NCBI RefSeq assembly: GCF_057098645.1
Contig: NZ_CM169472.1
Strand: one strand, 5' to 3'
DNA length: 64,000 nt
The position numbers and the translations under genes are program-made. Under the pieces are notes generated by a model, which was not told where the DNA came from, did no database searches, and saw only the letters and a program-made list of their open reading frames with translations. This document shows positions 2,352 through 29,976 of the stretch, in pieces. The stretch's first letter is position 1, and each line of letters begins with the position of its first letter.

Positions 2352-3674
2352 ATGAGTGCGTTAAGGGATGAAGTATCTATGAAGGTTGCGTTCTCTAATG
2401 GCATGATAAACAAATTATGCAAAAGTTTTTTTTATAGTCATGGTAAGGAGCAGCCTTGTATTCAAGTCGGTAAAGCATTAGAAGATTTTGTTTTTTGGCT
2501 TGCATATAATGATGAGGAGATTGCAAAATGTGCTAGTAGGTTATTAAAAGCATATGGCCCCCAATTAGGTATAAGTAACCTTCATAATGCGAAAAGATTA
2601 TTGTTAGGTTTTTGTTCTGAAGCCTTCAATCGCATTGATGCTGATTTTTTGTCGCTTAATCCTGATAAGATTTGTGTTGATGATATTATAACGCAAGTTC
2701 ATAGAAAAAATCTTAGTGAGATGTTTAAGTGTTATATACTTTCACGAATAAAATCCTGTCCATATATTTATAATCTTGGGTGTGCTGGCTTTGATGGGAA
2801 GCTTGAGCTTAGAGAAAATTTATTTTTATATGGCCCGGGGCTAGGGGTGGAATTACTTTCTGATATTAAAGACAAAACTGACATCAAGGTTCCTGTTGAT
2901 TTTTATGATGATGAATATATGCGGCATAAACCAATTGGGAAATATTTTCGACAGTCAAAATCCTGCTTGGTGGTGGCATATGCTTCATCAGAGGATAAAG
3001 CGGTGAAAATGTTTGATAGTTTGTTTGGAGCTTTATGTCTTGCAGTTGATAATCCTTTTGCGATTAATCGAGTTGCTGTTAATAATCTAGTTGAGTCTTT
3101 TGGTGTCGGGAAATATCATGAAAGTGAGTTTCGGGTGAATATTCCGTCTGTAAATAATTTAAATATAACGGATTCAACCTTGGCGATACTTACAAAAATA
3201 CTTTCATCACCTGATAAAAGGATGTTGTCTGCTCTTTCCTTTATAGCGCACGGGTGGAGAGATGACAAACGTGAAAGGTTTTTGAATCAATTTATAGCAT
3301 TGGATGCTATGTATGGAACCAATAATGGTAATAAAAATTCAATTATTGGCGGTGTTTGCAGAGATGCGGCGAAAATTATTGATATTGATTCAAAAATAGG
3401 AATAATCTATGAGCTTAGGTGTAAGTTTGTTCATGGAGATATTTCATCGTTATCTGATAATGATAGCTATCGAAAGTTTATTGATAGCTATGGCGTGGAC
3501 CCTATTGTTTCTCTTTTTGAAATTCTTAAAGAATGCGTCCTTAATTATAATGGTACTTACAAAACGCCAAAAGATGTTGGAAAGGCAGATAGGTCTATTT
3601 GCGTTCCTGCTGAGTTGCTTCCAGCGGTTGAGAGGATGATAGCGGAATACAGTGGAGTTAAAAAAACAAACTAA
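2352..3674 (+). CDS. hypothetical protein; AT-rich cargo gene at the tin/old position of P2; candidate anti-phage defence protein with C-terminal Rx4H (HEPN-like) motif
   Basis: 440-aa ORF, visibly AT-rich and Lys/Ile/Asn-rich unlike flanking phage genes; motif R356-CKFV-H361-GD; sits between gene A and cos. Confidence 0.75.
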   Translation: MSALRDEVSMKVAFSNGMINKLCKSFFYSHGKEQPCIQVGKALEDFVFWLAYNDEEIAKCASRLLKAYGPQLGISNLHNAKRLLLGFCSEAFNRIDADFLSLNPDKICVDDIITQVHRKNLSEMFKCYILSRIKSCPYIYNLGCAGFDGKLELRENLFLYGPGLGVELLSDIKDKTDIKVPVDFYDDEYMRHKPIGKYFRQSKSCLVVAYASSEDKAVKMFDSLFGALCLAVDNPFAINRVAVNNLVESFGVGKYHESEFRVNIPSVNNLNITDSTLAILTKILSSPDKRMLSALSFIAHGWRDDKRERFLNQFIALDAMYGTNNGNKNSIIGGVCRDAAKIIDIDSKIGIIYELRCKFVHGDISSLSDNDSYRKFIDSYGVDPIVSLFEILKECVLNYNGTYKTPKDVGKADRSICVPAELLPAVERMIAEYSGVKKTN

Positions 3675-6983: not shown

Positions 6984-7838
6984 ATGGCAAAAAAAGTCTC
7001 AAAATTCTTTCGTATCGGCGTTGAGGGTGACACCTGTGACGGGCGTGTCATCAGTGCGCAGGATATTCAGGAAATGGCCGAAACCTTTGACCCGCGAGTC
7101 TATGGTTGCCGCATTAACCTGGAACATCTGCGCGGCATCCTGCCTGACGGTATTTTTAAGCGTTATGGCGATGTGGCCGAACTGAAGGCCGAAAAGATTG
7201 ACGATGATTCGGCGCTGAAAGGCAAATGGGCGCTGTTTGCGAAAATCACCCCGACCGATGACCTTATCGCGATGAACAAGGCCGCGCAGAAGGTCTATAC
7301 CTCAATGGAAATTCAGCCGAATTTTGCCAATACCGGCAAATGTTATCTGGTGGGGCTGGCCGTCACCGATGACCCGGCAAGCCTCGGCACGGAATACCTG
7401 GAATTCTGCCGCACGGCAAAACACAACCCTCTGAACCGCTTCAAATTAAGCCCTGAAAACCTGATTTCAGTGGCAACGCCTGTTGAGCTGGAATTTGAAG
7501 ACCTGCCTGAAACCGTGTTCACCGCCCTGACTGAAAAGGTGAAATCCATTTTTGGCCGCAAACAGGCCAGCGATGACGCCCGTCTGAATGACGTGCATGA
7601 AGCGGTGACCGCTGTTGCTGAACATGTGCAGGAAAAACTGAGCGCCACTGAGCAGCGCCTCGCTGAGATGGAAAACGCCTTTTCCGCACTTAAGCAGGAG
7701 GTGACTGACAGGGCGGATGAAACCAGCCAGGCATTCACCCGCCTGAAAAACAGTCTCGACCACACCGAAAGTCTGACCCAGCAGCGCCGCAGCAAGGCCA
7801 CCGGCGGTGGCGGTGACGCCCTGATGACGAACTGCTGA
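6984..7838 (+). CDS. O: capsid scaffolding protein (P2 gpO-like)
   Basis: ORF track 6918..7838; start trimmed to MAKKVSKFF; Ala/Glu-rich coiled-coil C-terminus; synteny. Confidence 0.88.
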   Translation: MAKKVSKFFRIGVEGDTCDGRVISAQDIQEMAETFDPRVYGCRINLEHLRGILPDGIFKRYGDVAELKAEKIDDDSALKGKWALFAKITPTDDLIAMNKAAQKVYTSMEIQPNFANTGKCYLVGLAVTDDPASLGTEYLEFCRTAKHNPLNRFKLSPENLISVATPVELEFEDLPETVFTALTEKVKSIFGRKQASDDARLNDVHEAVTAVAEHVQEKLSATEQRLAEMENAFSALKQEVTDRADETSQAFTRLKNSLDHTESLTQQRRSKATGGGGDALMTNC

Positions 7839-9812: not shown

Positions 9813-10322
9813 ATGATGACGCTGATTATTCCGCGAAAGGAGGCTCCCGTGTCCGGTGAGGGTACGGTGGTCATCCCGCAACCGGCAGGCGACGAGCCGG
9901 TGATTAAAAACACGTTCTTTTTTCCCGATATCGACCCGAAGCGCGTCCGGGAACGTATGCGCCTTGAGCAGACCGTCGCCCCCGCCCGTCTGCGTGAGGC
10001 CATCAAGTCAGGCATGGCGGAGACAAATGCGGAGCTGTACGAGTACCGCGAACAGAAAATTGCCGCCGGTTTTACGCGTCTGGCGGACGTCCCGGCGGAC
10101 GATATCGACGGTGAAAGCATCAAAGTTTTTTACTACGAGCGCGCCGTGTGTGCGATGGCGACCGCGTCGCTTTATGAGCGTTATCGCGGCGTGGATGCCA
10201 GTGCGAAAGGTGACAAGAAGGCTGACAGCATTGACAGCACCATTGATGAGCTGTGGCGGGATATGCGCTGGGCGGTGGCGCGTATCCAGGACAAACCGCG
10301 CTGCATCGTGAGTCAAATCTGA
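9813..10322 (+). CDS. L: head completion/stabilisation protein (P2 gpL-like)
   Basis: ORF track 9753..10322; start trimmed to MMTLIIP giving 169 aa; stop overlaps X start (ATGA). Confidence 0.88.
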   Translation: MMTLIIPRKEAPVSGEGTVVIPQPAGDEPVIKNTFFFPDIDPKRVRERMRLEQTVAPARLREAIKSGMAETNAELYEYREQKIAAGFTRLADVPADDIDGESIKVFYYERAVCAMATASLYERYRGVDASAKGDKKADSIDSTIDELWRDMRWAVARIQDKPRCIVSQI

Positions 10323-10525
10323 TGAAGACCTTTGCGCTACAGGGCGACACGCTCGACGCCATTTGTGTCTGGTATTACGGGCGCACTGAGGGCGTGGTCG
10401 AAGCCGTGCTCGCCGCAAATCCGGGACTGGCTGAACTGGGGGCGGTGCTGCCGCACGGCACCGCCGTCGAACTGCCCGACGTTCAGACCGCGCCCGTGGC
10501 TGAAACTGTCAATCTGTGGGAGTAA
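10322..10525 (+). CDS. X: tail protein X (LysM-like, P2 gpX-like)
   Basis: 67-aa ORF starting MKTFALQGDTLDAI; synteny. Confidence 0.85.
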   Translation: MKTFALQGDTLDAICVWYYGRTEGVVEAVLAANPGLAELGAVLPHGTAVELPDVQTAPVAETVNLWE

Positions 10526-10528
10526 CGC

Positions 10529-10810
10529 ATGACAGCAGAAGAAAAAAGCGTCCTGTCGCTTTTCATGATTGGGGTGCTGATTGTTGTCGGCAAGGTGCTT
10601 GCCGGTGGTGAACCCATCACCCCGCGTCTGTTTATCGGGCGCATGTTGCTCGGTGGTTTTGTCTCGATGGTTGCCGGTGTTGTTCTGGTGCAGTTTCCTG
10701 ACCTGTCACTGCCTGCGGTGTGCGGCATCGGCTCCATGCTGGGTATCGCCGGTTATCAGGTGATTGAGATTGCCATTCAGCGCCGCTTTAAGGGCAGGGG
10801 GAAACAGTAA
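10529..10810 (+). CDS. Y: holin (P2 gpY-like)
   Basis: 93-aa ORF with hydrophobic helices, immediately upstream of the lysozyme gene. Confidence 0.85.
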   Translation: MTAEEKSVLSLFMIGVLIVVGKVLAGGEPITPRLFIGRMLLGGFVSMVAGVVLVQFPDLSLPAVCGIGSMLGIAGYQVIEIAIQRRFKGRGKQ

Positions 10811-11733
10811 TGCCGGTAATTAACACGCATCAGAATATCGCCGCCTTTCTCGACATGCTGGCGGTGTCCGAAGGGACGGCAAATCATCCGCTGACGAAAA
10901 ACCGGGGCTATGACGTGATAGTCACCGGACTGGACGGGAAGCCGGAAATCTTCACCGACTACAGTGACCACCCGTTCGCGCATGGCCGACCGGCGAAGGT
11001 GTTTAACCGTCGCGGTGAAAAGTCCACGGCCTCCGGTCGCTATCAGCAGCTTTACCTGTTCTGGCCGCACTACCGCAAACAGCTTGCCCTGCCGGATTTC
11101 AGTCCGTTGTCACAGGACAGACTCGCCATTCAGTTGATCCGCGAACGCGGTGCACTGGATGACATCCGGGCGGGACGCATTGAGCGCGCCATTTCACGCT
11201 GTCGCAATATCTGGGCGTCCCTGCCGGGTGCCGGTTACGGTCAGCGTGAGCATTCACTGGAAAAACTGGTCACCGTCTGGCGTACCGGCTTAAACGGAGT
11301 AAACACCATGAAGAAATTATCCCTTTCACTGATGCTGAATGTGTCGCTGGCGCTGATGCTGGCACTGTCACTGATTTACCCGCAGAGCGTGGCCGTCAGT
11401 TTTGTCGCTGCCTGGGCGATTCTGGCGACGGTTATCTGTGTGGTTGCCGGTGGTGTCGGCGTGTATGCCACTGAGTATGTACTTGAGCGCTACGGACGGG
11501 AGCTGCCGCCGGAATCGCTGGCCGTGAAGATTGTCACGTCGCTGTTTTTGCAGCCGGTGCCGTGGTGCAGACGGGCGGCGGGTCTGGTGGTGATGGTGGC
11601 GACGTTTATCTCGCTGGTCGCTGCCGGGTGGATTTTTACTGCACTGATTTATCTCGTGGCGTCGCTGTTTTTCCGGCTGATACGTAAAGCCTGTCGTCAG
11701 CGTTTTGAGGGGCGGGAACTATGTCAAAGCTGA
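10810..11733 (+). CDS. K: endolysin (P2 K-like lysozyme) reading through in frame into a LysA-like membrane domain (307 aa)
   Basis: N-terminal ~165 aa look like P2 K lysozyme; no stop codon before the LysA-like MKKLSLSLMLNV... segment in the same frame. Confidence 0.7.
   Translation: MPVINTHQNIAAFLDMLAVSEGTANHPLTKNRGYDVIVTGLDGKPEIFTDYSDHPFAHGRPAKVFNRRGEKSTASGRYQQLYLFWPHYRKQLALPDFSPLSQDRLAIQLIRERGALDDIRAGRIERAISRCRNIWASLPGAGYGQREHSLEKLVTVWRTGLNGVNTMKKLSLSLMLNVSLALMLALSLIYPQSVAVSFVAAWAILATVICVVAGGVGVYATEYVLERYGRELPPESLAVKIVTSLFLQPVPWCRRAAGLVVMVATFISLVAAGWIFTALIYLVASLFFRLIRKACRQRFEGRELCQS
11308..11733 (+). CDS. lysA: LysA-like membrane protein (possible internal in-frame start within the K reading frame)
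   Basis: ATG at 11308 in frame gives 141 aa, the length I recall for P2 LysA; hydrophobic segments. Confidence 0.5.
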   Translation: MKKLSLSLMLNVSLALMLALSLIYPQSVAVSFVAAWAILATVICVVAGGVGVYATEYVLERYGRELPPESLAVKIVTSLFLQPVPWCRRAAGLVVMVATFISLVAAGWIFTALIYLVASLFFRLIRKACRQRFEGRELCQS

Positions 11734-12146
11734 TGATTGTGCTGGTCGTGTTGTTATCGCTGGCGGTGGCGGGGCTGTTTCTGGCGAAGCATGAAAACGC
11801 CAGCCTGCGCGCCTCGCTGGACAGGGTGAACAACGTCGCCAGTGAACAGCAGACGACCATCACCATGCTGAAAAATCAGCTTCATGTTGCCATCACCAGG
11901 GCAGACAAAAACGAGCTGGCGCAGGTGGCACTGCGTCAGGAACTGGAGAACGCCGCGAAGCGTGAAGCACAGCGCGAGAAAACCATCACGAGGTTACTTA
12001 ATGAAAACGAAGATTTTCGCCGCTGGTATGGCGCTGACCTGCCTGATGCTGTGCGCCGGTTGCACCAGCGTCCGGCCTGCACCGACGCCAGTGATTGTCG
12101 CCAACGCCTGCCCGAAAGTGAGCCTTTGCCCGATGCCGGGCAGTGA
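11721..12146 (+). CDS. lysB: LysB, Rz-like i-spanin
   Basis: 141-aa ORF with N-terminal TM helix and coiled-coil; synteny. Confidence 0.8.
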   Translation: MSKLMIVLVVLLSLAVAGLFLAKHENASLRASLDRVNNVASEQQTTITMLKNQLHVAITRADKNELAQVALRQELENAAKREAQREKTITRLLNENEDFRRWYGADLPDAVRRLHQRPACTDASDCRQRLPESEPLPDAGQ

Positions 12147-12291
12147 CCCGCAGACGAACGGCGATTTAAGTGCCGATATCCGGCAGCTTGAGAACGCGCT
12201 GGCACGCTGTGCCAGCCAGGTAAAAATGATTAAACACTGTCAGGACGAAAACGATGCTCAAACCCGACAGCCTGCGCAGGGCACTGACTGA
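12001..12291 (+). CDS. lysC: LysC, Rz1-like o-spanin lipoprotein embedded in lysB in another frame
   Basis: MKTKIFAAGMALTCLMLCAGC lipobox signal; start trimmed from ORF-track 11884; Pro-rich. Confidence 0.75.
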   Translation: MKTKIFAAGMALTCLMLCAGCTSVRPAPTPVIVANACPKVSLCPMPGSDPQTNGDLSADIRQLENALARCASQVKMIKHCQDENDAQTRQPAQGTD

Positions 12292-13263: not shown

Positions 13264-14508
13264 CTAAATCCAGCGAAGGTAGAATAGTAAGTAAGGATCT
13301 CTGATGTCTAATACATCGCTTTCTTGATCCCACTCGATAATACTGCTATTTGCAGCATCGTTGGCAATAGCAGTTGAGTGCTGACATGCACTGGTTATAC
13401 TAGAACCGCTTGGGCTATCGCCATGACATAACGAGGTCACTCGAGATACTAAGTCAGAATAACGAAATGTCAGCGTCGGAGGATTAGAAGCAATGGCTTT
13501 TAATAAAAAGACATAAACATCGCCTTGCCAGCCATCTTTTGATATATATGATTTTCTATCAGAACCACGCACTTTAGGTCCTTCGCGCATTTTATCCACA
13601 ATCGTGCTGTAATCTGCTGACTGAAGTGTACGTTTGCACACTCTTTGCAATGTGGCAATATCTTTTTGATATTTTATTGAAGTATCAGAAGTCTCTCTGA
13701 CATTCATTTCAAAACAAGAGTTTAAGCATAAATATTGCATTAGTTGTGGTGAGCCTGCGGACTCTTTTACTAACTCACTTATAACTTCATCAGAGGCATC
13801 TATATTGAGTAGTTTGAATCCTTTCTGAGCAATAATTTTTAAGGTTGATTCATCCCAATAATCAAAATCAATATTAAATATCCGGCCTCGTAAGTCAGAG
13901 TTACCCCGAAGAACATCATCAGAATGATATGGCACTGATGCACAAATAAATTTGCAGCCATTAGCTATGGCATCTTTTATTTGTCGTGATAGTTCGGCTT
14001 GAGCTTCTTTAGCAATATAGTGAAAATCATCGATAAAGATAACATAATCTGTGTTTGCGATTTCTCGCTTCATTAGTTGAAAGAGATCTATCGCAAATGA
14101 TTCTGAGGTTTGATCTGCTGTACTATAACCAGCGGATGCAGACCCTTTAAGACTACCTTTTGCTAAAATTACACCAGCTTGGGCAGATAATTCTCCTGTA
14201 CTTGAAAATGATGAGGTGCCAGTTTTACTTTGAACTTGGGTTACTGGTACACCAAGTATGTCGAAAACGCGCTTCCATAAATCATTAGCAGATTGAACCC
14301 CTGCTCCAGTTACTTCGATTAGCCTCTGGGTTCCAAGTACTTTCTTAACAAAGACAGTTTTTCCTGATTTTGATGGGCCAGAGATAGAAATCAGCATGGT
14401 GCCCATCTCAAGTGTATCGATTAACTGTTGCTGTTTAGATACTAGGTGATCCTCAACCAGTGTGTGGTTGGGATAACCGCCTGGGATAAAAACCTCTGTC
14501 GCCTTCAT
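13264..14508 (-). CDS. hypothetical P-loop NTPase; AT-rich cargo gene between S and V; candidate anti-phage defence ATPase
   Basis: 414-aa ORF; Walker A GPSKSGKT (aa 44-51, nt 14356..14379); Walker B YVIFIDD (aa 155-161); Ser/Thr/Gly-rich insert between them; opposite strand and lower GC than the phage backbone. Confidence 0.8.
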   Translation of the reverse strand: MKATEVFIPGGYPNHTLVEDHLVSKQQQLIDTLEMGTMLISISGPSKSGKTVFVKKVLGTQRLIEVTGAGVQSANDLWKRVFDILGVPVTQVQSKTGTSSFSSTGELSAQAGVILAKGSLKGSASAGYSTADQTSESFAIDLFQLMKREIANTDYVIFIDDFHYIAKEAQAELSRQIKDAIANGCKFICASVPYHSDDVLRGNSDLRGRIFNIDFDYWDESTLKIIAQKGFKLLNIDASDEVISELVKESAGSPQLMQYLCLNSCFEMNVRETSDTSIKYQKDIATLQRVCKRTLQSADYSTIVDKMREGPKVRGSDRKSYISKDGWQGDVYVFLLKAIASNPPTLTFRYSDLVSRVTSLCHGDSPSGSSITSACQHSTAIANDAANSSIIEWDQESDVLDIRDPYLLFYLRWI

Positions 14509-18390: not shown

Positions 18391-18945
18391 ATGAACTCAG
18401 TATTCTTTTCACCCGGAAGTAAAAGTTTTTATCTGCAAGAATTGTTTCCAGAATATGAGGATGCGGGAACGCTTCCTGATGATGTTATTGAAATTACCCG
18501 AGAAACATATGAGCAATTTCTTGGGCTGCATCCAGAAGGGAAAGAAATTGGCGCTGACAGTTCAGGACGGCCAATATGGATTAATTCCCCGCCGCCTTCA
18601 AAAGAGGATGAGGTGCTGGCGGCTGAAATGAAAAAAATATCTTTGGTTTCAGAAGTCAATACCTACATCAATACCCATCAGTGGCCTGGCAAAGCTGCTA
18701 TTGGTCGTCTGAAAGGTGACGAGCTGGAACAATATAATTTATGGCTGGATTATCTGGACGCACTGGAACTGGTTGATACCTCCAGTGCTCCAGATTGCGT
18801 ATTCCGCTCTATTCGATCACGGATTGGCATCGAAGTCCGATCAGCGATTCGCATCCATTCGATCAACCGGGAACTTAACTTTTTCTACCGCTTTTTAACG
18901 CGTTTTTTCGCTGCTTTCCACTACCGGGGGATTTTTCCTCAGTGA
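18391..18945 (+). CDS. G: tail fibre assembly protein (gpG-like) with C-terminus replaced by IS-derived sequence
   Basis: 184-aa ORF; native sequence ends at ...DTSSAPD (nt ~18795), then reads into the IS21-family element. Confidence 0.7.
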   Translation: MNSVFFSPGSKSFYLQELFPEYEDAGTLPDDVIEITRETYEQFLGLHPEGKEIGADSSGRPIWINSPPPSKEDEVLAAEMKKISLVSEVNTYINTHQWPGKAAIGRLKGDELEQYNLWLDYLDALELVDTSSAPDCVFRSIRSRIGIEVRSAIRIHSINRELNFFYRFLTRFFAAFHYRGIFPQ

Positions 18946-19650
18946 CTCTCCCTGAAGGACCACTCGGTGTGAGTTATGTACCAGTCTGTCCAGGATGGCA
19001 TCTGCTGTTGTTGGGTTCTCCATCAGACCATGCCATTTATCTACCGGGAACTGGCTTACCACTATCGTGCTGCTTTGTCCGTAACGATCCTCTATGAGCT
19101 CCAGAAGGTCATTACACTGGGCGTTACTTAACTGTTCCAGCCCCAGATCGTCCAGGATTAGAACCTGTATTTTTTGCAACTGTTTCAGATATTTCAGCCA
19201 GCTGCCATCAACACGTCCCTGAGCCAGTTGTTCCAGTAATCGCCCGGTTCTACAGTACCGGACGCTGTGTTTCTGTCGACATGCCTGTTCGCCCAGCGCA
19301 TTGGCTATCCAGCTCTTGCCACATCCTGTCGGACCGGTTATCAGCAGGTTTTTCCTGTGGGTTATGTAGTGGCCGTTCAGCAGTTCTCTCATCTGTTCAG
19401 CCCGCAGACCTCTTGAGGCCGGATAGCGCAGCCCTTCCGGTGTTGCCTGGTATTTCAGGCCGGCATTTTTTCTCAACCGTGCCACACGGCTGTTTTCCCT
19501 GCTCAGAAGCTCGTCATCAACCAGCAGCGTCAGCCTTTCCTCGAACGACAGTTCGTCGTAGGTCTGAGGCGTTTCCCGCTGCCGTATCAGGCTCCCGGCC
19601 ATCGCCGGGAGTTTCAGTTGGGTCAGTTTGTTTAACAGGTTATCACTCAT
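18895..19650 (-). CDS. istB: IS21-family helper ATPase IstB
   Basis: Walker A GPTGCGKS, Walker B VLILDDLG; start trimmed to MSDNLLNKL within ORF-track 18895..19893. Confidence 0.9.
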   Translation of the reverse strand: MSDNLLNKLTQLKLPAMAGSLIRQRETPQTYDELSFEERLTLLVDDELLSRENSRVARLRKNAGLKYQATPEGLRYPASRGLRAEQMRELLNGHYITHRKNLLITGPTGCGKSWIANALGEQACRQKHSVRYCRTGRLLEQLAQGRVDGSWLKYLKQLQKIQVLILDDLGLEQLSNAQCNDLLELIEDRYGQSSTIVVSQFPVDKWHGLMENPTTADAILDRLVHNSHRVVLQGESLRKNPPVVESSEKTR

Positions 19651-19666
19651 ACTGTTGTTCCTTCTG

Positions 19667-21202
19667 TCAGTGGTAGTAGCCCGGACCACGCAGGTTTTCA
19701 TGCTCTGAAGCATATGCCGGATGTTGTTCGCCCTGGCGGGATAATGGAAGCTCCAGGTTCTCCCGATGGTGACGCAGCAGATTGTCGATAAAGCGTCTGT
19801 CAGGGGCGTTATAGTGCAGGGCAACGTAACAGGCCTTTTCCAGCCGTTCCGGGCCGTATTTTTTCTGAAGTGCCAGCAGCCCCAGAACTGCACGATAAGC
19901 CAGTTCCGGATGGGGTTTTGCCTTCAGCATGGATTCAACCACCCGGCCTGTGGACGGGCCCGTACGTTTTCCCTGCTCGATCAGGCGTTCCGGTGTCCAT
20001 GTCCCGTGCTGCCGGTGGCGCTCTGGCATGTGAAGCGGATTGGTTGTGTGTTTATATTCATGTGTGCTGCGCGGATGTTGCGCCACACACTGCCCCTTGT
20101 GCCAGAGCTGTACCACCGACTGCCCCGCCTTCAGTGACAGACGCTGACCGACCAGTTCGTGTGGAACGGAGTACCAGTGACGGGCATATTCAACGTGGTA
20201 GTCAGGGCCAACCTTCACAGCTTTGTATTCCGTGTATTCATAAGGTGCCAGAGGCAGCGGAGAGAGTGCTGGCGCATCCAGTATGCGGAAGCGTTCTGCA
20301 CGGGTTTGATTGCCGTACCCCTTCATTGGCCGGTTATTCATGTCTGTCAGTAACTCCCTAAGGCGCGCATTCAGCGCCCTGAGCGTGTGGAAGGTTTCAT
20401 TACGGATGCGGGCAAGAAGCCATCGTTCAACGATGAGGACGCCGTTTTCTGCTTTTGGTTTATCTTTAGGTTTGCGTGGTCGGGCCGGGATGATAACCGT
20501 GCCATAGTGCTCAGCCAGTGCCTGATAACTGTCGTTGATGACAGGCTCATATCGATCGGCCTTTTTCACTGCGCTTCTGAGGTTATCGGGGATGAGCAGC
20601 TTCGGTACGCCGCCCAGGAAGGTCAGGCAACGGCTGTGGGCATTTAACCATGACATCATGTCCTGACCTTCGCACGCTTCAACGTAGGTATAGTTGGACG
20701 CCCCCATTACGGCCACGAAGATTGCCACGCGGCGTATCTCACCGGTGTCCGGATTAATAACAGGAACCGTAGGACCACAGAAGTCGATAAAAAGCTTTTC
20801 GCCGGCACGATGCTCCTGGCGCATGGAGAGACGTCGCGTTTTTTTCCACTCCCGGTAGCAACGGCAGAAGTGCGAGTATCCCATCGCTTTGTTACCCGCC
20901 TGTGCCTTGTATTCCATCCACAACAGTTGCCGCGTCACACCTGGTTTTCTCATTTCCGTATCGAAGTACAACATGTCAGGCATTACAAGCTCTGATGCAA
21001 AGGTGTCTTTGGGCGGAAAAATGAGTTTCTCCAGCGTGTCATGGGATATATCAGCAGGTAATGGCCATGACAGAGAAGAGGCTTTGAAGCGGGCAAGAAC
21101 CTCAAAAACGGTTGAGGCGCTGATGTGTAACGTCAGTCCGATACAACGGTTAGTCAGCTTCTTGTCGAACTTGAGCTGAAGGATCTTAAAACAGGTTTCC
21201 AT
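19667..21202 (-). CDS. istA: IS21-family transposase IstA
   Basis: N-terminal HTH then DDE-type core; start trimmed to METCFKIL within ORF-track 19667..21313 (track start is a TTG). Confidence 0.88.
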   Translation of the reverse strand: METCFKILQLKFDKKLTNRCIGLTLHISASTVFEVLARFKASSLSWPLPADISHDTLEKLIFPPKDTFASELVMPDMLYFDTEMRKPGVTRQLLWMEYKAQAGNKAMGYSHFCRCYREWKKTRRLSMRQEHRAGEKLFIDFCGPTVPVINPDTGEIRRVAIFVAVMGASNYTYVEACEGQDMMSWLNAHSRCLTFLGGVPKLLIPDNLRSAVKKADRYEPVINDSYQALAEHYGTVIIPARPRKPKDKPKAENGVLIVERWLLARIRNETFHTLRALNARLRELLTDMNNRPMKGYGNQTRAERFRILDAPALSPLPLAPYEYTEYKAVKVGPDYHVEYARHWYSVPHELVGQRLSLKAGQSVVQLWHKGQCVAQHPRSTHEYKHTTNPLHMPERHRQHGTWTPERLIEQGKRTGPSTGRVVESMLKAKPHPELAYRAVLGLLALQKKYGPERLEKACYVALHYNAPDRRFIDNLLRHHRENLELPLSRQGEQHPAYASEHENLRGPGYYH

Positions 21203-21299
21203 AGTGCTCCTGGATTTTCTCTTTCTGGACATTGACGTCTCCACTGGTTTAAACACGGCAATGGAGACTGTGGTGAAAAGAGTTAATTCCCGGAGTGAC

Positions 21300-21434
21300 T
21301 GGCAGGATGCCAATCAATGATCGGAAGCATGCCAAATCGTGATCGATTGTGATGCCAAACTGTGATCGGAGATGGATGCCAAATCATGATCGATTCGAAT
21401 GCCAAACTGCGATCGATTCAGATGCCATTTTGCA
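21300..21434. repeat. tandem ~20-bp terminal repeats of the IS21-family element (transposase binding sites)
   Basis: five to six copies of GATGCCAAA(C/T)NGTGATCGAT-like units; similar units inverted at the other end (18796..18880). Confidence 0.7.
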
Positions 21435-21450
21435 CCAGATATTGAATGGC

Positions 21451-22056
21451 CTACGCCTCCGGTAGTTCAGGCCAGATGACATCCGGCGCGGTGCTGATAT
21501 CTGTTGCAGTCACCGCGTCAATGTAATCCAGCACAGCGTTAAGCCGGGTTGTTTCTGCCTGCGTCAGCTTCCGCCCGGCCTGCAATTTCAGCTGAATCAG
21601 ACTAATGGAAGCCATAGCCGCATCAATCAGTGACTGGCGCCGTACTTCTGCCGCGTCTACTGCGGCGTTATGCTGTGCCTCAGTGTCGGTCACCCATTTC
21701 TCACCATCCCATTTATCGTATGACGTTAACGGGGCGATAGTGGTTGTATTTTCAGGGTAATCACCCGGAACTGTGATTTCTTTTGATTCTCCTGTTTCGG
21801 TGCTATAGACGATTTCACCGCGATGGTCTGGCACATATTCCCATGAGTTAAAATCTGCAGAACGGCAAATTGCATAACCAGCTTTATATGAGCCAGGAGC
21901 ATCTAAACAGGAACATGCCGGGATACCGACACCCACAGCAAGATATTCAGTTGATGTGGAAATATATTCCCGTGTTTCACCATCATAATTATAAACGGTA
22001 ATGTCTCCGGCCTTTGTGGCGATGAGTTCATTATTTAATACAGCTTTACTTATCAT
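21451..22056 (-). CDS. tail fibre assembly protein, alternative copy in the invertible segment
   Basis: 201-aa ORF ending ...APDVIWPELPEA; directly downstream of the alternative fibre C-terminal cassette. Confidence 0.85.
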   Translation of the reverse strand: MISKAVLNNELIATKAGDITVYNYDGETREYISTSTEYLAVGVGIPACSCLDAPGSYKAGYAICRSADFNSWEYVPDHRGEIVYSTETGESKEITVPGDYPENTTTIAPLTSYDKWDGEKWVTDTEAQHNAAVDAAEVRRQSLIDAAMASISLIQLKLQAGRKLTQAETTRLNAVLDYIDAVTATDISTAPDVIWPELPEA

Positions 22057-22565
22057 GCAGCCCTCACAATATAATTAAAGGCGATGTTACGGGAGCGGGT
22101 TTCAGATGCTGTGCGAACTGAGCGAGATGCGTCGAATGTCCAGTTATAAGCGCCATAACCCTCAATAATTTCGGCTTCCTTTAGACCTGTAGATAATACT
22201 TGCCCATGTTGACTAAATGGCCCTGAACTAAGTACGTCTCTAAAAAGCTGGGTACGCCCAAAAGAACCAACAATATTCTGAATTGCATCATTCTGTGCAG
22301 ATAATAAGTTACGACCAGAGTCAATCCCGCGCCCATCATCCCAGCCACGAATAAATTCACCGCGTAAATCTGGTAATTTTAATGTTGGGTAAGCCTTTGC
22401 CAGATTTGGGTACTTTTCAGAAGAAAATACTGCTCCGTTACATTTTAGCCACCCCATTGGCGGAGTGGCTGAAGGCCACGGAACAGGCACACCAACCGGT
22501 AATGCAGAGCCTTCTCCCAAACCAACGTTTAAGAAAATGCAGAGATTATGTCTAACTGGCATCAT
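22053..22565 (-). CDS. alternative tail fibre C-terminal cassette (promoterless; expressed only after inversion fuses it to H)
   Basis: ORF contains the same NVGLGE junction motif as H at the crossover site; lies between the right crossover site and the alternative assembly gene. Confidence 0.75.
   Translation of the reverse strand: MMPVRHNLCIFLNVGLGEGSALPVGVPVPWPSATPPMGWLKCNGAVFSSEKYPNLAKAYPTLKLPDLRGEFIRGWDDGRGIDSGRNLLSAQNDAIQNIVGSFGRTQLFRDVLSSGPFSQHGQVLSTGLKEAEIIEGYGAYNWTFDASRSVRTASETRSRNIAFNYIVRAA
22512..22537. other. site-specific recombination (crossover) site of a Gin/Hin-family invertase, right copy
   Basis: TTCTCCCAAACC-AA-CGTTTAAGAAAA fits the TTnTCnnAAACC-nn-GGTTTnnGAnAA consensus with one mismatch; adjacent to the invertase gene. 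Confidence 0.65.
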
Positions 22566-22592
22566 CTCCGGTTTTTATTCAGGGGGATGCTC

Positions 22593-23186
22593 ATGCTTAT
22601 TGGCTATGTACGCGTGTCAACAAATGACCAGAACACGGAATTGCAGCGTAATGCGCTGGAGTGCGCAGGATGTGAGCTGATTTTTGAGGACAAAATCAGC
22701 GGCACGAAGTCCGACAGGCCGGGGCTGAAAAAACTGCTCAGAACATTATCGGAAGGTGACACTCTGGTTGTCTGGAAGCTGGACAGGCTGGGGCGTAGTA
22801 TGCGGCATCTGGTCATTCTGGTTGAGGAACTGCGCGAACGCGGCGTTAATTTTCGCAGCCTGACGGATGCTATTGATACCAGCACGCCGATGGGGCGTTT
22901 TTTCTTTCATGTGATGGGTGCCCTGGCTGAAATGGAGCGAGAACTCATTGTCGAGCGGACACGCGCCGGACTGGAAGCGGCCAGAGCCAAAGGTCGTATT
23001 GGTGGCAGACGACCGAAACTCACCGCGAGTGAGTGGGAGCAGGCCGGGCGTTTGCTGGCTGCAGGGGAGTCACGTCAACGCGTGGCACTGATTTTTGATA
23101 TTGGTCTGTCCACGCTCTATAAAAAATTTCCCTCATCAGCGACAAAGAATAAATTGTGTCATCCCTTAGCCAACCGGGACAAATAG
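22593..23186 (+). CDS. serine DNA invertase (Gin/Hin/Cin/Pin family)
   Basis: MLIGYVRVSTNDQ catalytic-serine N-terminus and C-terminal HTH; start trimmed from ORF-track 22548. Confidence 0.9.
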   Translation: MLIGYVRVSTNDQNTELQRNALECAGCELIFEDKISGTKSDRPGLKKLLRTLSEGDTLVVWKLDRLGRSMRHLVILVEELRERGVNFRSLTDAIDTSTPMGRFFFHVMGALAEMERELIVERTRAGLEAARAKGRIGGRRPKLTASEWEQAGRLLAAGESRQRVALIFDIGLSTLYKKFPSSATKNKLCHPLANRDK

Positions 23187-29886: not shown

Positions 29887-29976
29887 GTCGATGTGGTCAA
29901 TGTGTGGACGTGACCAGAAATAAATCCTTTTATTTCATGCAATTAGATATCAAAAAATGTCACCAATAACTGACAT
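29887..29976. other. attR: attR: prophage right attachment region with Int arm-type repeats and a core overlapping the pflA start
   Basis: direct repeats TGTGGTCA / TGTGGACG resemble the P2 Int arm-site consensus TGTGGACA; host-like sequence resumes at ~29962. Confidence 0.5.
29950..29976 (-). pseudogene. pflA: pflA 5' fragment: native start codon plus five codons (MSVIG) fused to phage sequence, reading MSVIGDIF-stop
   Basis: reverse complement ATGTCAGTTATTGGT sits ~191 nt downstream of the pflB stop, where pflA starts in E. coli; the frame hits a stop after 8 codons. Confidence 0.7.

What the first reader, a model, noticed from the sequence alone, without database searches (positions are those of the whole stretch)
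10810..11733. Endolysin reads through in frame into the LysA-like membrane protein
The lysozyme ORF has no stop codon where P2 K (165 aa as I recall) should end. The codon at ~11305..11307 is ACC, followed in the same frame by ATG AAG AAA... and a 141-aa hydrophobic LysA-like segment. The result is a 307-aa lysozyme-membrane domain fusion, with LysA possibly also made from the internal in-frame ATG at 11308. This may be a lost stop codon or a natural signal-anchor-like endolysin variant that changes lysis timing.
Basis: partly seen in the sequence, partly recalled or inferred. Interest (0 to 1): 0.4.

Follow-up and report, generated by a model that had tools for sequence, protein, structure and literature searches.

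The report
Frameshift deletion fuses prophage endolysin to LysA
A 14-base slippage deletion in a P2-like prophage of E. coli joins the cell-wall-cutting enzyme K to the neighbouring membrane protein LysA; it is a real but rare mutant allele, most likely a lysis defect in a decaying prophage rather than a new kind of lysis protein.

Summary
ORF 10810..11733 encodes 307 aa: P2 gpK residues 1-159, a 7-aa linker (GLNGVNT) and the whole of LysA (141 aa).

The stop codon is not lost. K's TAA is still at 11291-11293 but is out of frame, because 14 bp present in P2 are missing. The missing piece is one copy of a 9-bp direct repeat (GGCGTACCG) plus its 5-bp spacer, which is the pattern of replication slippage.

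Separate K and lysA genes are the norm. All 75 sequenced P2-like phages and about 1,470 complete E. coli genomes with this region have them. No LysA homologue among 1.84 billion representatives carries an N-terminal enzyme domain.

The allele is not an assembly error. The identical protein occurs on at least 12 contigs from at least 8 samples. A second fused allele sits on a different haplotype, so the deletion probably arose twice.

The lambda-R-like catalytic domain is intact, but it is predicted to be tethered on the cytoplasmic face of the membrane. I infer impaired lysis. This prophage also carries an IS21-family insertion in a tail-fibre assembly gene, and the second fused allele lies in a tail-less prophage remnant.

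This is ordinary prophage decay with a minor curiosity. Interest is low.

The parts
10529..10810 (+). Holin gene Y (93 aa), immediately upstream. Its stop overlaps the K start.
   Evidence: PF04550 Phage_holin_3_2 at E=2.6e-42; 100% identical to P2 gpY.
10810..11733 (+). Fused ORF K::lysA, 307 aa.
   Evidence: The exact protein is found on at least 12 public contigs.
10810..11286 (+). Codons 1-159 of endolysin K, a lambda-R-type lytic transglycosylase (GH104). The catalytic domain is complete.
   Evidence: 100% identical to P2 gpK 1-159. Residues 9-158 align to lambda lysozyme 1AM7 residues 7-147 at E=1e-41, including the SEGT motif that holds the catalytic Glu.
11279..11287 (+). The single surviving copy of the 9-bp direct repeat GGCGTACCG, which is the deletion junction. 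P2 has two copies (7466-7474 and 7480-7488) separated by CTGGC.
11287..11307 (+). Seven linker codons (GLNGVNT), read from what is normally the end of K, its stop and the K-lysA spacer in the lysA frame.
11291..11293 (+). The original K stop codon TAA, still present but now out of frame.
11296..11299 (+). GGAG Shine-Dalgarno sequence of lysA, 8 nt before the ATG and unchanged from wild type. Independent initiation of LysA remains possible.
   Evidence: Searches show the sequence. That it functions as a start signal is inferred.
11308..11733 (+). lysA part (141 aa; DNZ54_00345 / PF28015 family). This is the putative antiholin, with 3-4 hydrophobic segments.
   Evidence: NF038378 at E=1.7e-34, residues 167-300. 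Hydropathy. PF28015 is listed for the same protein.
11721..12146 (+). lysB (Rz-like i-spanin), intact.
   Evidence: 141/141 aa, 94% identical to P2 LysB.
12001..12291 (+). lysC (Rz1-like o-spanin), intact.
   Evidence: 96/96 aa, 93% identical to P2 LysC.

Best explanation
The window holds a P2-like prophage of E. coli integrated between pflA and pflB. The window starts inside replication gene A, and the right prophage end is near 29,940. In this prophage a 14-bp deletion removed one copy of the 9-bp direct repeat GGCGTACCG plus its 5-bp spacer near the 3' end of endolysin gene K. This is the pattern expected from slipped-strand mispairing during replication. The deletion shifts K's reading frame by two bases into the frame of the downstream gene lysA. 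That frame is open for 24 codons upstream of the lysA ATG, so K's own TAA is bypassed. Translation gives K(1-159), a 7-aa linker and full-length LysA(141). All of this is shown directly.

The rest is inferred. No free soluble endolysin can be made from this allele. LysA is predicted to have its N- and C-termini in the cytoplasm, because K/R residues cluster at both ends, and it is reported to have four transmembrane segments. The intact transglycosylase domain would therefore sit on the cytoplasmic face of the inner membrane, tethered to a polytopic membrane protein. It could not diffuse through the holes made by holin Y, so lysis should be abolished, weakened or delayed. K is essential for P2 lysis. 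LysA itself can probably still be made from its own unchanged ribosome-binding site and ATG.

The allele is silent in a lysogen. It can therefore persist and be carried into other P2-like prophages by recombination. It is best read as an early lesion of prophage decay, not as a designed lysis protein.
For: The deletion and its flanking repeats are seen. The in-silico deletion in P2 reproduces the fusion.

Wild type is the norm. All 75 P2-like phage records have the 14 bp. None of about 1,470 complete E. coli genomes with this region has the deletion. There were 0 exact junction matches in 100,044 species-representative genomes and in JGI metagenomes. The closest prophage, in strain KW21, is 99% identical over the late-gene region, sits at the same pflA/pflB site, and has separate K (498 bp) and lysA genes.

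The allele is not an artefact. The exact 307-aa protein is on at least 12 contigs from at least 8 samples (GCA_029361185.1 and several SRA runs). These fall into four or more mosaic backgrounds that share a SNP-free block at about 10,000-12,000.

The deletion recurred. A second fused allele (L002/L013/L014) differs from the window allele by 23 SNPs. It is only 4 SNPs from wild-type strain Z142-6, while the window allele is 7 SNPs from wild-type strain CUVM53. Both wild-type alleles have perfect 9-bp repeats.

It is not a conserved architecture. All 37 LysA-family hits among 1.84 billion representatives are at most 165 aa, and the full-length homologues are 133-143 aa starting at residue 1. The other K homologues listed are single-domain proteins of about 165-190 aa.

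The catalytic domain is intact. Topology rests on hydropathy and charge: 3 K/R before the first hydrophobic segment and 6 K/R in the C-tail, plus four transmembrane segments reported for P2 LysA (PMC3091744).

The allele is associated with decay. An IS21-family element at 18796..21434 interrupts the tail-fibre assembly gene in this same prophage. The second fused allele lies in a prophage that has lost everything from lysC to gene D.
Against: No experiment bears on lysis competence of the fusion.

All other P2 late proteins in the window are full length, so the prophage is not grossly degraded.

The fused haplotype occurs in several recombinant prophage backgrounds and seems to have arisen twice. 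This could also mean that it is tolerated by a viable phage.

Large C-terminal fusions to the homologous lambda R endolysin are reported to remain lysis-proficient. I know this from the R-beta-galactosidase fusion of Wang, Deaton and Young 2003, which I could not read here.

Natural endolysins with C-terminal transmembrane domains do cause lysis (PMC7143992, PMC8943055).

The topology is predicted, not measured.
Confidence: 0.7

Rival explanations
1. The fusion is a working lysis protein. It would be a membrane-tethered endolysin-antiholin chimera that still reaches the cell wall once holin Y opens the membrane, or by its own transmembrane part, and so changes lysis timing. Phage carrying it would remain viable.
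For: The catalytic domain is complete. The linker is short and polar. The holin, spanins and all structural genes are intact. The allele is present in four or more mosaic prophage backgrounds and seems to have arisen twice. [quoted passage not shown]
Against: It is absent from all 75 sequenced P2-like phages, which are particles that had to lyse a host. It is absent from about 1,470 complete genomes. No LysA homologue anywhere has an enzyme domain. Recurrence is explained by the 9-bp repeats. Persistence is expected for any silent prophage mutation. Both backgrounds that could be inspected fully carry further lesions, namely the IS insertion and the tail-module deletion. The predicted topology places the enzyme on the wrong side of the membrane.
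Confidence: 0.2
2. The missing 14 bp is a sequencing or assembly artefact of the source genome.
For: Frameshifted chimeric 'K' proteins found only once are common in public protein collections, for example P0016-P0048.
Against: The identical junction and the identical 307-aa protein occur in independent assemblies from at least 8 samples and in a second haplotype. A 14-bp loss between 9-bp repeats is not a homopolymer-type read error, and repeats this short cannot collapse in assembly. Over 14 kb the window differs from its closest relative by only one other net indel, a 4-bp intergenic one.
Confidence: 0.03
3. The in-frame K-LysA arrangement is normal for P2-like phages.
For: None found.
Against: P2 itself has K (165 aa), a TAA stop, a 14-nt spacer and a separate lysA. 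Every phage record and every complete genome examined has the same arrangement.
Confidence: 0.01

Closest known systems
Bacteriophage P2 lysis cassette Y-K-lysA-lysB-lysC (Ziermann et al. 1994 from my own knowledge; NC_001895)
   Same: Same gene order and 93-100% protein identity for Y, K(1-159), LysA, LysB and LysC. The position in the late O operon is the same, and so is the lysA ribosome-binding site.
   Different: K lacks its last six residues and its stop is out of frame, so K and LysA form one polypeptide. The cause is a 14-bp deletion of P2 coordinates 7466-7479 (equivalently 7475-7488).
Lambda R lytic transglycosylase (PDB 1AM7) and its engineered C-terminal fusions
   Same: The K domain is homologous (E=1e-41). 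Like lambda R it has no secretion signal and depends on a hole-forming holin.
   Different: Here the C-terminal partner is a polytopic membrane protein, not a soluble one, so diffusion through holin holes is not expected.
Endolysins with a C-terminal transmembrane domain (Salmonella phage BSPM4 M4Lys, Hafnia phage Enc34 ORF39, chi-like phage Siskin; PMC7143992, PMC8943055)
   Same: The overall layout matches: an N-terminal muralytic domain followed by a C-terminal membrane segment.
   Different: Those form a conserved family with an unrelated catalytic domain (PHA02564) and 1-2 helices, and their lytic activity is demonstrated. The present fusion is a rare mutant allele of two otherwise separate genes, with a complete antiholin-like protein of about four segments attached.
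SAR (signal-anchor-release) endolysins such as P1 Lyz, phage 21 R21 and Mu gp22 (PMC9239132)
   Same: Both are endolysins physically linked to a membrane segment.
   Different: A SAR domain is N-terminal and exports the enzyme to the periplasm. Here the enzyme comes before the membrane segments and has no hydrophobic N-terminus (maximum 19-residue hydropathy in the K domain is 0.92).
Deletions between short direct repeats by replication slippage, and prophage pseudogenisation
   Same: The deleted unit is exactly one repeat plus the spacer. The same deletion is found on two haplotypes. The prophages concerned carry other lesions.
   Different: Nothing differs. This is the textbook pattern.

Membership tests
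P2 gpK / lambda R-type endolysin (GH104 lytic transglycosylase) | Sequence homology to lambda lysozyme, including the catalytic Glu in the SEGT motif | tested here: met
   Residues 9-158 align to 1AM7 residues 7-147 at E=1.1e-41, with SEGT aligned. 100% identical to P2 gpK 1-159.
P2 gpK / lambda R-type endolysin (GH104 lytic transglycosylase) | Free, soluble single-domain protein of about 165 aa ended by its own stop codon | tested here: not met
   The stop TAA at 11291-11293 is out of frame and the ORF continues to 11733. The other K homologues listed are single-domain proteins of about 165-190 aa.
LysA (DNZ54_00345, NF038378 / PF28015), the putative P2 antiholin | Match to the family model above its curated cut-off | tested here: met
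   NF038378 scores 118.7 bits against a cut-off of 40, over residues 167-300.
LysA (DNZ54_00345, NF038378 / PF28015), the putative P2 antiholin | Stand-alone membrane protein of about 141 aa that starts at its own ATG | tested here: inconclusive
   The long ORF adds 166 N-terminal residues. The GGAG and ATG of lysA are unchanged, so the stand-alone form may still be made, but translation was not measured. All full-length homologues are 133-143 aa.
LysA (DNZ54_00345, NF038378 / PF28015), the putative P2 antiholin | Delays Y-holin triggering (antiholin activity) | not testable with these tools
   This needs lysis-curve experiments. The literature calls P2 LysA an antiholin with four transmembrane segments (PMC3091744).
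SAR / signal-anchor endolysins | N-terminal weakly hydrophobic transmembrane segment that precedes the catalytic domain | tested here: not met
   There is no hydrophobic stretch in residues 1-150 (maximum 19-residue Kyte-Doolittle score 0.92). All hydrophobic segments lie at 169-292.
C-terminal-TMD endolysins (Enc34 / M4Lys / Siskin type) | Conserved family with a PHA02564-type catalytic domain fused to 1-2 C-terminal helices | tested here: not met
   The catalytic domain is lambda-R-like. The fusion is not conserved: no LysA homologue has an enzyme domain, and none of 75 phages has the fusion. Only the layout is similar.
Slipped-strand deletion between direct repeats | The wild-type sequence has two direct repeats, and the mutant keeps one copy and loses the other copy plus the spacer | tested here: met
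   Wild type reads GGCGTACCG-(5 nt)-GGCGTACCG in P2, CUVM53 and Z142-6. The window and L002, L005 and L013 have a single copy.
Decaying (defective) prophage | Further inactivating lesions in lytic-cycle genes | tested here: met
   An IS21-family element at 18796..21434, with CCAGAT target duplication, replaces the last ~14 codons of the tail-fibre assembly gene. All other late genes are intact, so any decay is at an early stage.

The most novel reading that the evidence does not exclude
The K::LysA fusion may be a viable, naturally arising membrane-anchored endolysin. In this reading a slippage hotspot repeatedly converts the P2 cassette's separate endolysin and antiholin into one polypeptide. 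That polypeptide would still support lysis, perhaps with altered timing, and would circulate among recombining P2-like phages. It would be a living example of how endolysins with C-terminal transmembrane domains can originate.
Probability: 0.15. Interest if true: 0.5.

Novelty: new member of a known kind. Interest (0 to 1): 0.2.

Why it matters
The finding matters mainly for annotation. The 307-aa 'lysozyme-membrane fusion' should be read as a frameshifted K gene running into lysA. It is not a new endolysin class and not a lost stop codon.

There are two minor points of interest. First, the 9-bp repeat pair at the end of K appears to be a recurrent deletion hotspot, and because the lysA frame is open upstream, each event produces the same in-frame chimera. 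Second, the allele offers a ready-made natural construct for testing whether a lambda-R-type endolysin tethered to the cytoplasmic face of the membrane can still reach the wall through holin holes.

If the fusion is inactive, it marks this prophage and its relatives as lysis-defective. That bears on whether the prophage's cargo genes can still spread by phage particles.

Tried and rejected
Pfam gave no family for the K domain or for the whole fusion. Homology had to come from PDB sequences, NCBIfam and PHROGs.

Exact-junction scans of species-representative genomes and of JGI metagenomes found nothing. Only one IMG/VR contig matched.

I tried to reach the host flank of the GCA_029361185.1 contig (L005) by looking up its DUF3850 protein. 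That protein is common, and the call returned ten unrelated wild-type prophages at yegR, pflA and cpxP sites. I therefore could not establish whether the fused haplotype sits in different host lineages or attachment sites. It did add ten more examples of the wild-type arrangement.

The primary papers on P2 lysis (To et al. 2013) and on the R-beta-galactosidase fusion (Wang et al. 2003) are not held. Statements from them rest on my own knowledge and on citing papers.

I considered a programmed frameshift that would restore the TAA. I rejected it because there is no slippery heptamer near 11270-11293 (direct reading).

I considered structure prediction. I did not run it because it cannot decide membrane topology or lysis competence.

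Full report
**Observation**

The + strand ORF 10810..11733 encodes 307 aa. Residues 1-159 are 100% identical to P2 endolysin gpK, which is 165 aa. Residues 167-307 are LysA, 141 aa and 95% identical to P2 LysA, with an NF038378 hit of 118.7 bits against a cut-off of 40. Seven residues, GLNGVNT, join the two parts.

**What caused it**

Aligning the junction with P2 shows that the window lacks 14 bp.
- P2 reads GTCT-GGCGTACCG-CTGGC-GGCGTACCG-GCTTAA. The two 9-bp direct repeats lie at 7466-7474 and 7480-7488.
- The window has a single repeat copy, at 11279-11287.
- K's stop codon TAA is still present at 11291-11293 but is now out of frame. The lysA ribosome-binding site GGAG (11296-11299) and the ATG (11308) are unchanged.
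- In P2 the lysA frame is open for 24 codons upstream of its ATG. Any shift into that frame near the end of K therefore yields a read-through fusion.
- Deleting the same 14 bp from P2 in silico gives a 924-bp ORF and a 307-aa protein with the identical linker.

So the stop codon was not lost. This is a frameshift deletion with the pattern of slipped-strand mispairing.

**Context**

The window is E. coli DNA. The 12 kb to the right of the prophage is 100% identical to O145:H28 chromosomes (pflB, focA, ycaO, serC, aroA, rpsA). The prophage is P2-like:
- The window starts inside replication gene A.
- It continues through a cargo gene, the cos site and the late genes Q, P, O, N, M, L, X, Y, K::lysA, lysB/C, R, S.
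- A second cargo gene follows, then V, W, J, I, tail-fibre genes, FI through D and ogr.
- Homology to P2 ends near 29,937, next to pflB.

The closest complete-genome relative is the prophage of strain KW21. It sits at the same pflA/pflB site and is 99% identical over 14 kb. It has a normal 498-bp K gene and a separate lysA. Over that 14 kb the window differs from it by only two net indels. One is 4 bp in the O-N intergenic space, and the other is the 14-bp deletion. All other P2 late proteins are full length in the window.

**Is the fused arrangement normal?**

It is not.
- All 75 P2-like phage records contain the extra 14 bp.
- About 1,470 of 5,426 complete E. coli genomes carry this region, and none has the deletion. 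This holds whether the query is the junction or either fused allele.
- The exact 24-nt junction is absent from 100,044 species-representative genomes and from JGI metagenomes.
- An exhaustive HMMER search with LysA against 1.84 billion cluster representatives gave only 37 hits. Every full-length homologue is 133-143 aa and starts at residue 1, and none has an N-terminal enzyme domain.
- The K homologues listed from other genera are single-domain proteins of about 165-190 aa.

**Is it an artefact?**

It is not.
- The exact 307-aa sequence is in the 15-billion-protein collection.
- It lies on at least 12 contigs from at least 8 samples, including GCA_029361185.1, ERR3905718, DRR634222, SRR5033736, SRR33963762, ERR12121972, SRR13048147 and ERR12122442.
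- These contigs are not copies of one genome. They carry different cargo genes and differ from the window in blocks of SNPs (0 to 115 SNPs in 9 kb). They share a SNP-free block from about 10,000 to 12,000 that contains the fusion.
- The pattern is that of one haplotype carried into several recombinant P2-like prophages.

**A second fused allele**

A second fused allele is present in IMG/VR contig L002 and in GCA_002518655.1 and SRR29736265 (L013, L014).
- It differs from the window allele by 23 SNPs in 924 bp.
- It is only 4 SNPs from wild-type strain Z142-6, while the window allele is 7 SNPs from wild-type strain CUVM53.
- In each pair the lysA half is identical, and both wild-type alleles have perfect 9-bp repeats.

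The simplest reading is that the same deletion happened at least twice. Short-patch recombination cannot be excluded, because the roughly 200 bp around the junction are invariant in nearly all alleles. Other one-off fusions exist in the database, made by different frameshifts (P0016, 296 aa; P0017, 253 aa). They show that this gene boundary is prone to such products.

**Likely consequence (inferred)**

- The K domain is complete. Residues 9-158 align with lambda lysozyme 1AM7 at E=1e-41, including the SEGT catalytic motif, and the break comes after the alignable region.
- The K domain has no hydrophobic segment (maximum 19-residue hydropathy 0.92).
- The LysA part has hydrophobic segments at about 169-189, 193-218 and 258-288.
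- There are three K/R residues just before the first segment and six in the C-terminal tail.
- P2 LysA is described as a four-segment antiholin (PMC3091744).
- By the positive-inside rule, both ends of LysA face the cytoplasm.

The enzyme would therefore be tethered to the cytoplasmic face of the membrane. P2 uses a canonical holin and a soluble endolysin that must diffuse through holin holes, and K is essential for lysis (NC_001895 annotation). A tethered K is therefore expected to lyse poorly or not at all. LysA may still be made separately from its own start site. Late genes are silent in a lysogen, so the allele costs the host nothing and can drift.

**Association with decay**

In the window an IS21-family (ISSso4-like) element occupies 18796..21434. 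It is flanked by a CCAGAT duplication and replaces the last ~14 codons of the tail-fibre assembly gene that starts at 18391. The second fused allele lies in a prophage that has lost everything between lysC and the end of gene D.

**Rival reading**

The fusion might still work.
- Large C-terminal fusions to lambda R are tolerated (Wang et al. 2003, from my own knowledge; the paper is not held).
- A family of natural endolysins with C-terminal transmembrane domains lyses cells without a holin (PMC7143992, PMC8943055).
- The allele persists in several backgrounds.

Against this, it is absent from every sequenced phage particle genome, it is rare, it is not conserved, and its predicted topology is wrong for reaching the wall. 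I give this reading about 0.15-0.2.

**Verdict**

This is a real, rare, recurrent 14-bp slippage deletion that fuses K to LysA in a P2-like prophage. It is most probably a lysis-impairing lesion. It is a mutant member of a well-known lysis cassette, not a new system. Interest is low (0.2).

Noticed in passing
window 18796..21434 (istA 19667..21313 -, istB 18895..19893 -): An IS21-family (ISSso4-like) insertion sequence with a 6-bp CCAGAT target duplication (18790-18795 and 21435-21440). It is inserted at about codon 135 of the tail-fibre assembly gene 18391.. (Caudo_TAP) and replaces that gene's last ~14 residues. This is a second lesion in the same prophage.
   Followed up: yes
window 13264..14508 (-): A 414-aa P-loop ATPase occupies the S/V (orf30) cargo hotspot of the P2-like prophage. 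It matches the PADLOC phage-defence candidate PDC-S59 (E=2.7e-31) and, weakly, AAA_22. The KW21 prophage has it, but the L005-type prophages that carry the same fused K::lysA do not.
   Followed up: partly
window 2352..3674 (+): A 440-aa ORF lies between replication gene A and cos, at the old/tin cargo hotspot. It has no hit in Pfam, NCBIfam or PADLOC and may be an uncharacterised defence or cargo gene.
   Followed up: partly
L002 9486 / L013 11363 (equivalent to window 12178 joined to 29392): The second fused allele sits in a prophage remnant at the same pflA/pflB site. A 17-kb deletion there joins lysC to the 3' end of gene D and removes all tail genes.
   Followed up: partly
window 21451..23186: Convergent tail-fibre assembly genes lie next to a 212-aa ORF at the position of the gene that KW21 annotates as 'recombinase family protein'. 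This suggests an invertible tail-fibre segment like Mu G or P1 C, and the IS element lies inside or at its edge.
   Followed up: no
P2 record NC_001895 (L003) lysA; PHROG phrog_162: lysA is labelled 'endolysin' in RefSeq P2 and in PHROG 162, although it is a 141-aa membrane protein with no enzyme domain. This label could mislead automatic readers into seeing two endolysins. PHROG 17029 (241 columns) matches residues 1-234 of the fusion, which suggests that other K-into-lysA read-throughs are already in phage protein sets.
   Followed up: partly
proteins P0019-P0048: Many chimeric 'K' proteins, most seen on only one or two contigs, are fused to holin Y, terminase M, baseplate V or capsid N fragments. 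They are probably frameshift or assembly products, and they show the background rate of such fusions in large protein collections.
   Followed up: no
L023 (GCA_032300135.1, cpxP-fieF site): Another P2-like prophage remnant. The portal-to-K region is deleted, leaving lysA next to the cargo genes. It also carries an IS21-type element (IstB and an rve transposase) downstream of gene R.
   Followed up: no
window 7846: A 4-bp indel (CAGC absent) relative to the KW21 prophage lies in the O-N intergenic spacer. All contigs that carry the window-type fused allele share it.
   Followed up: partly
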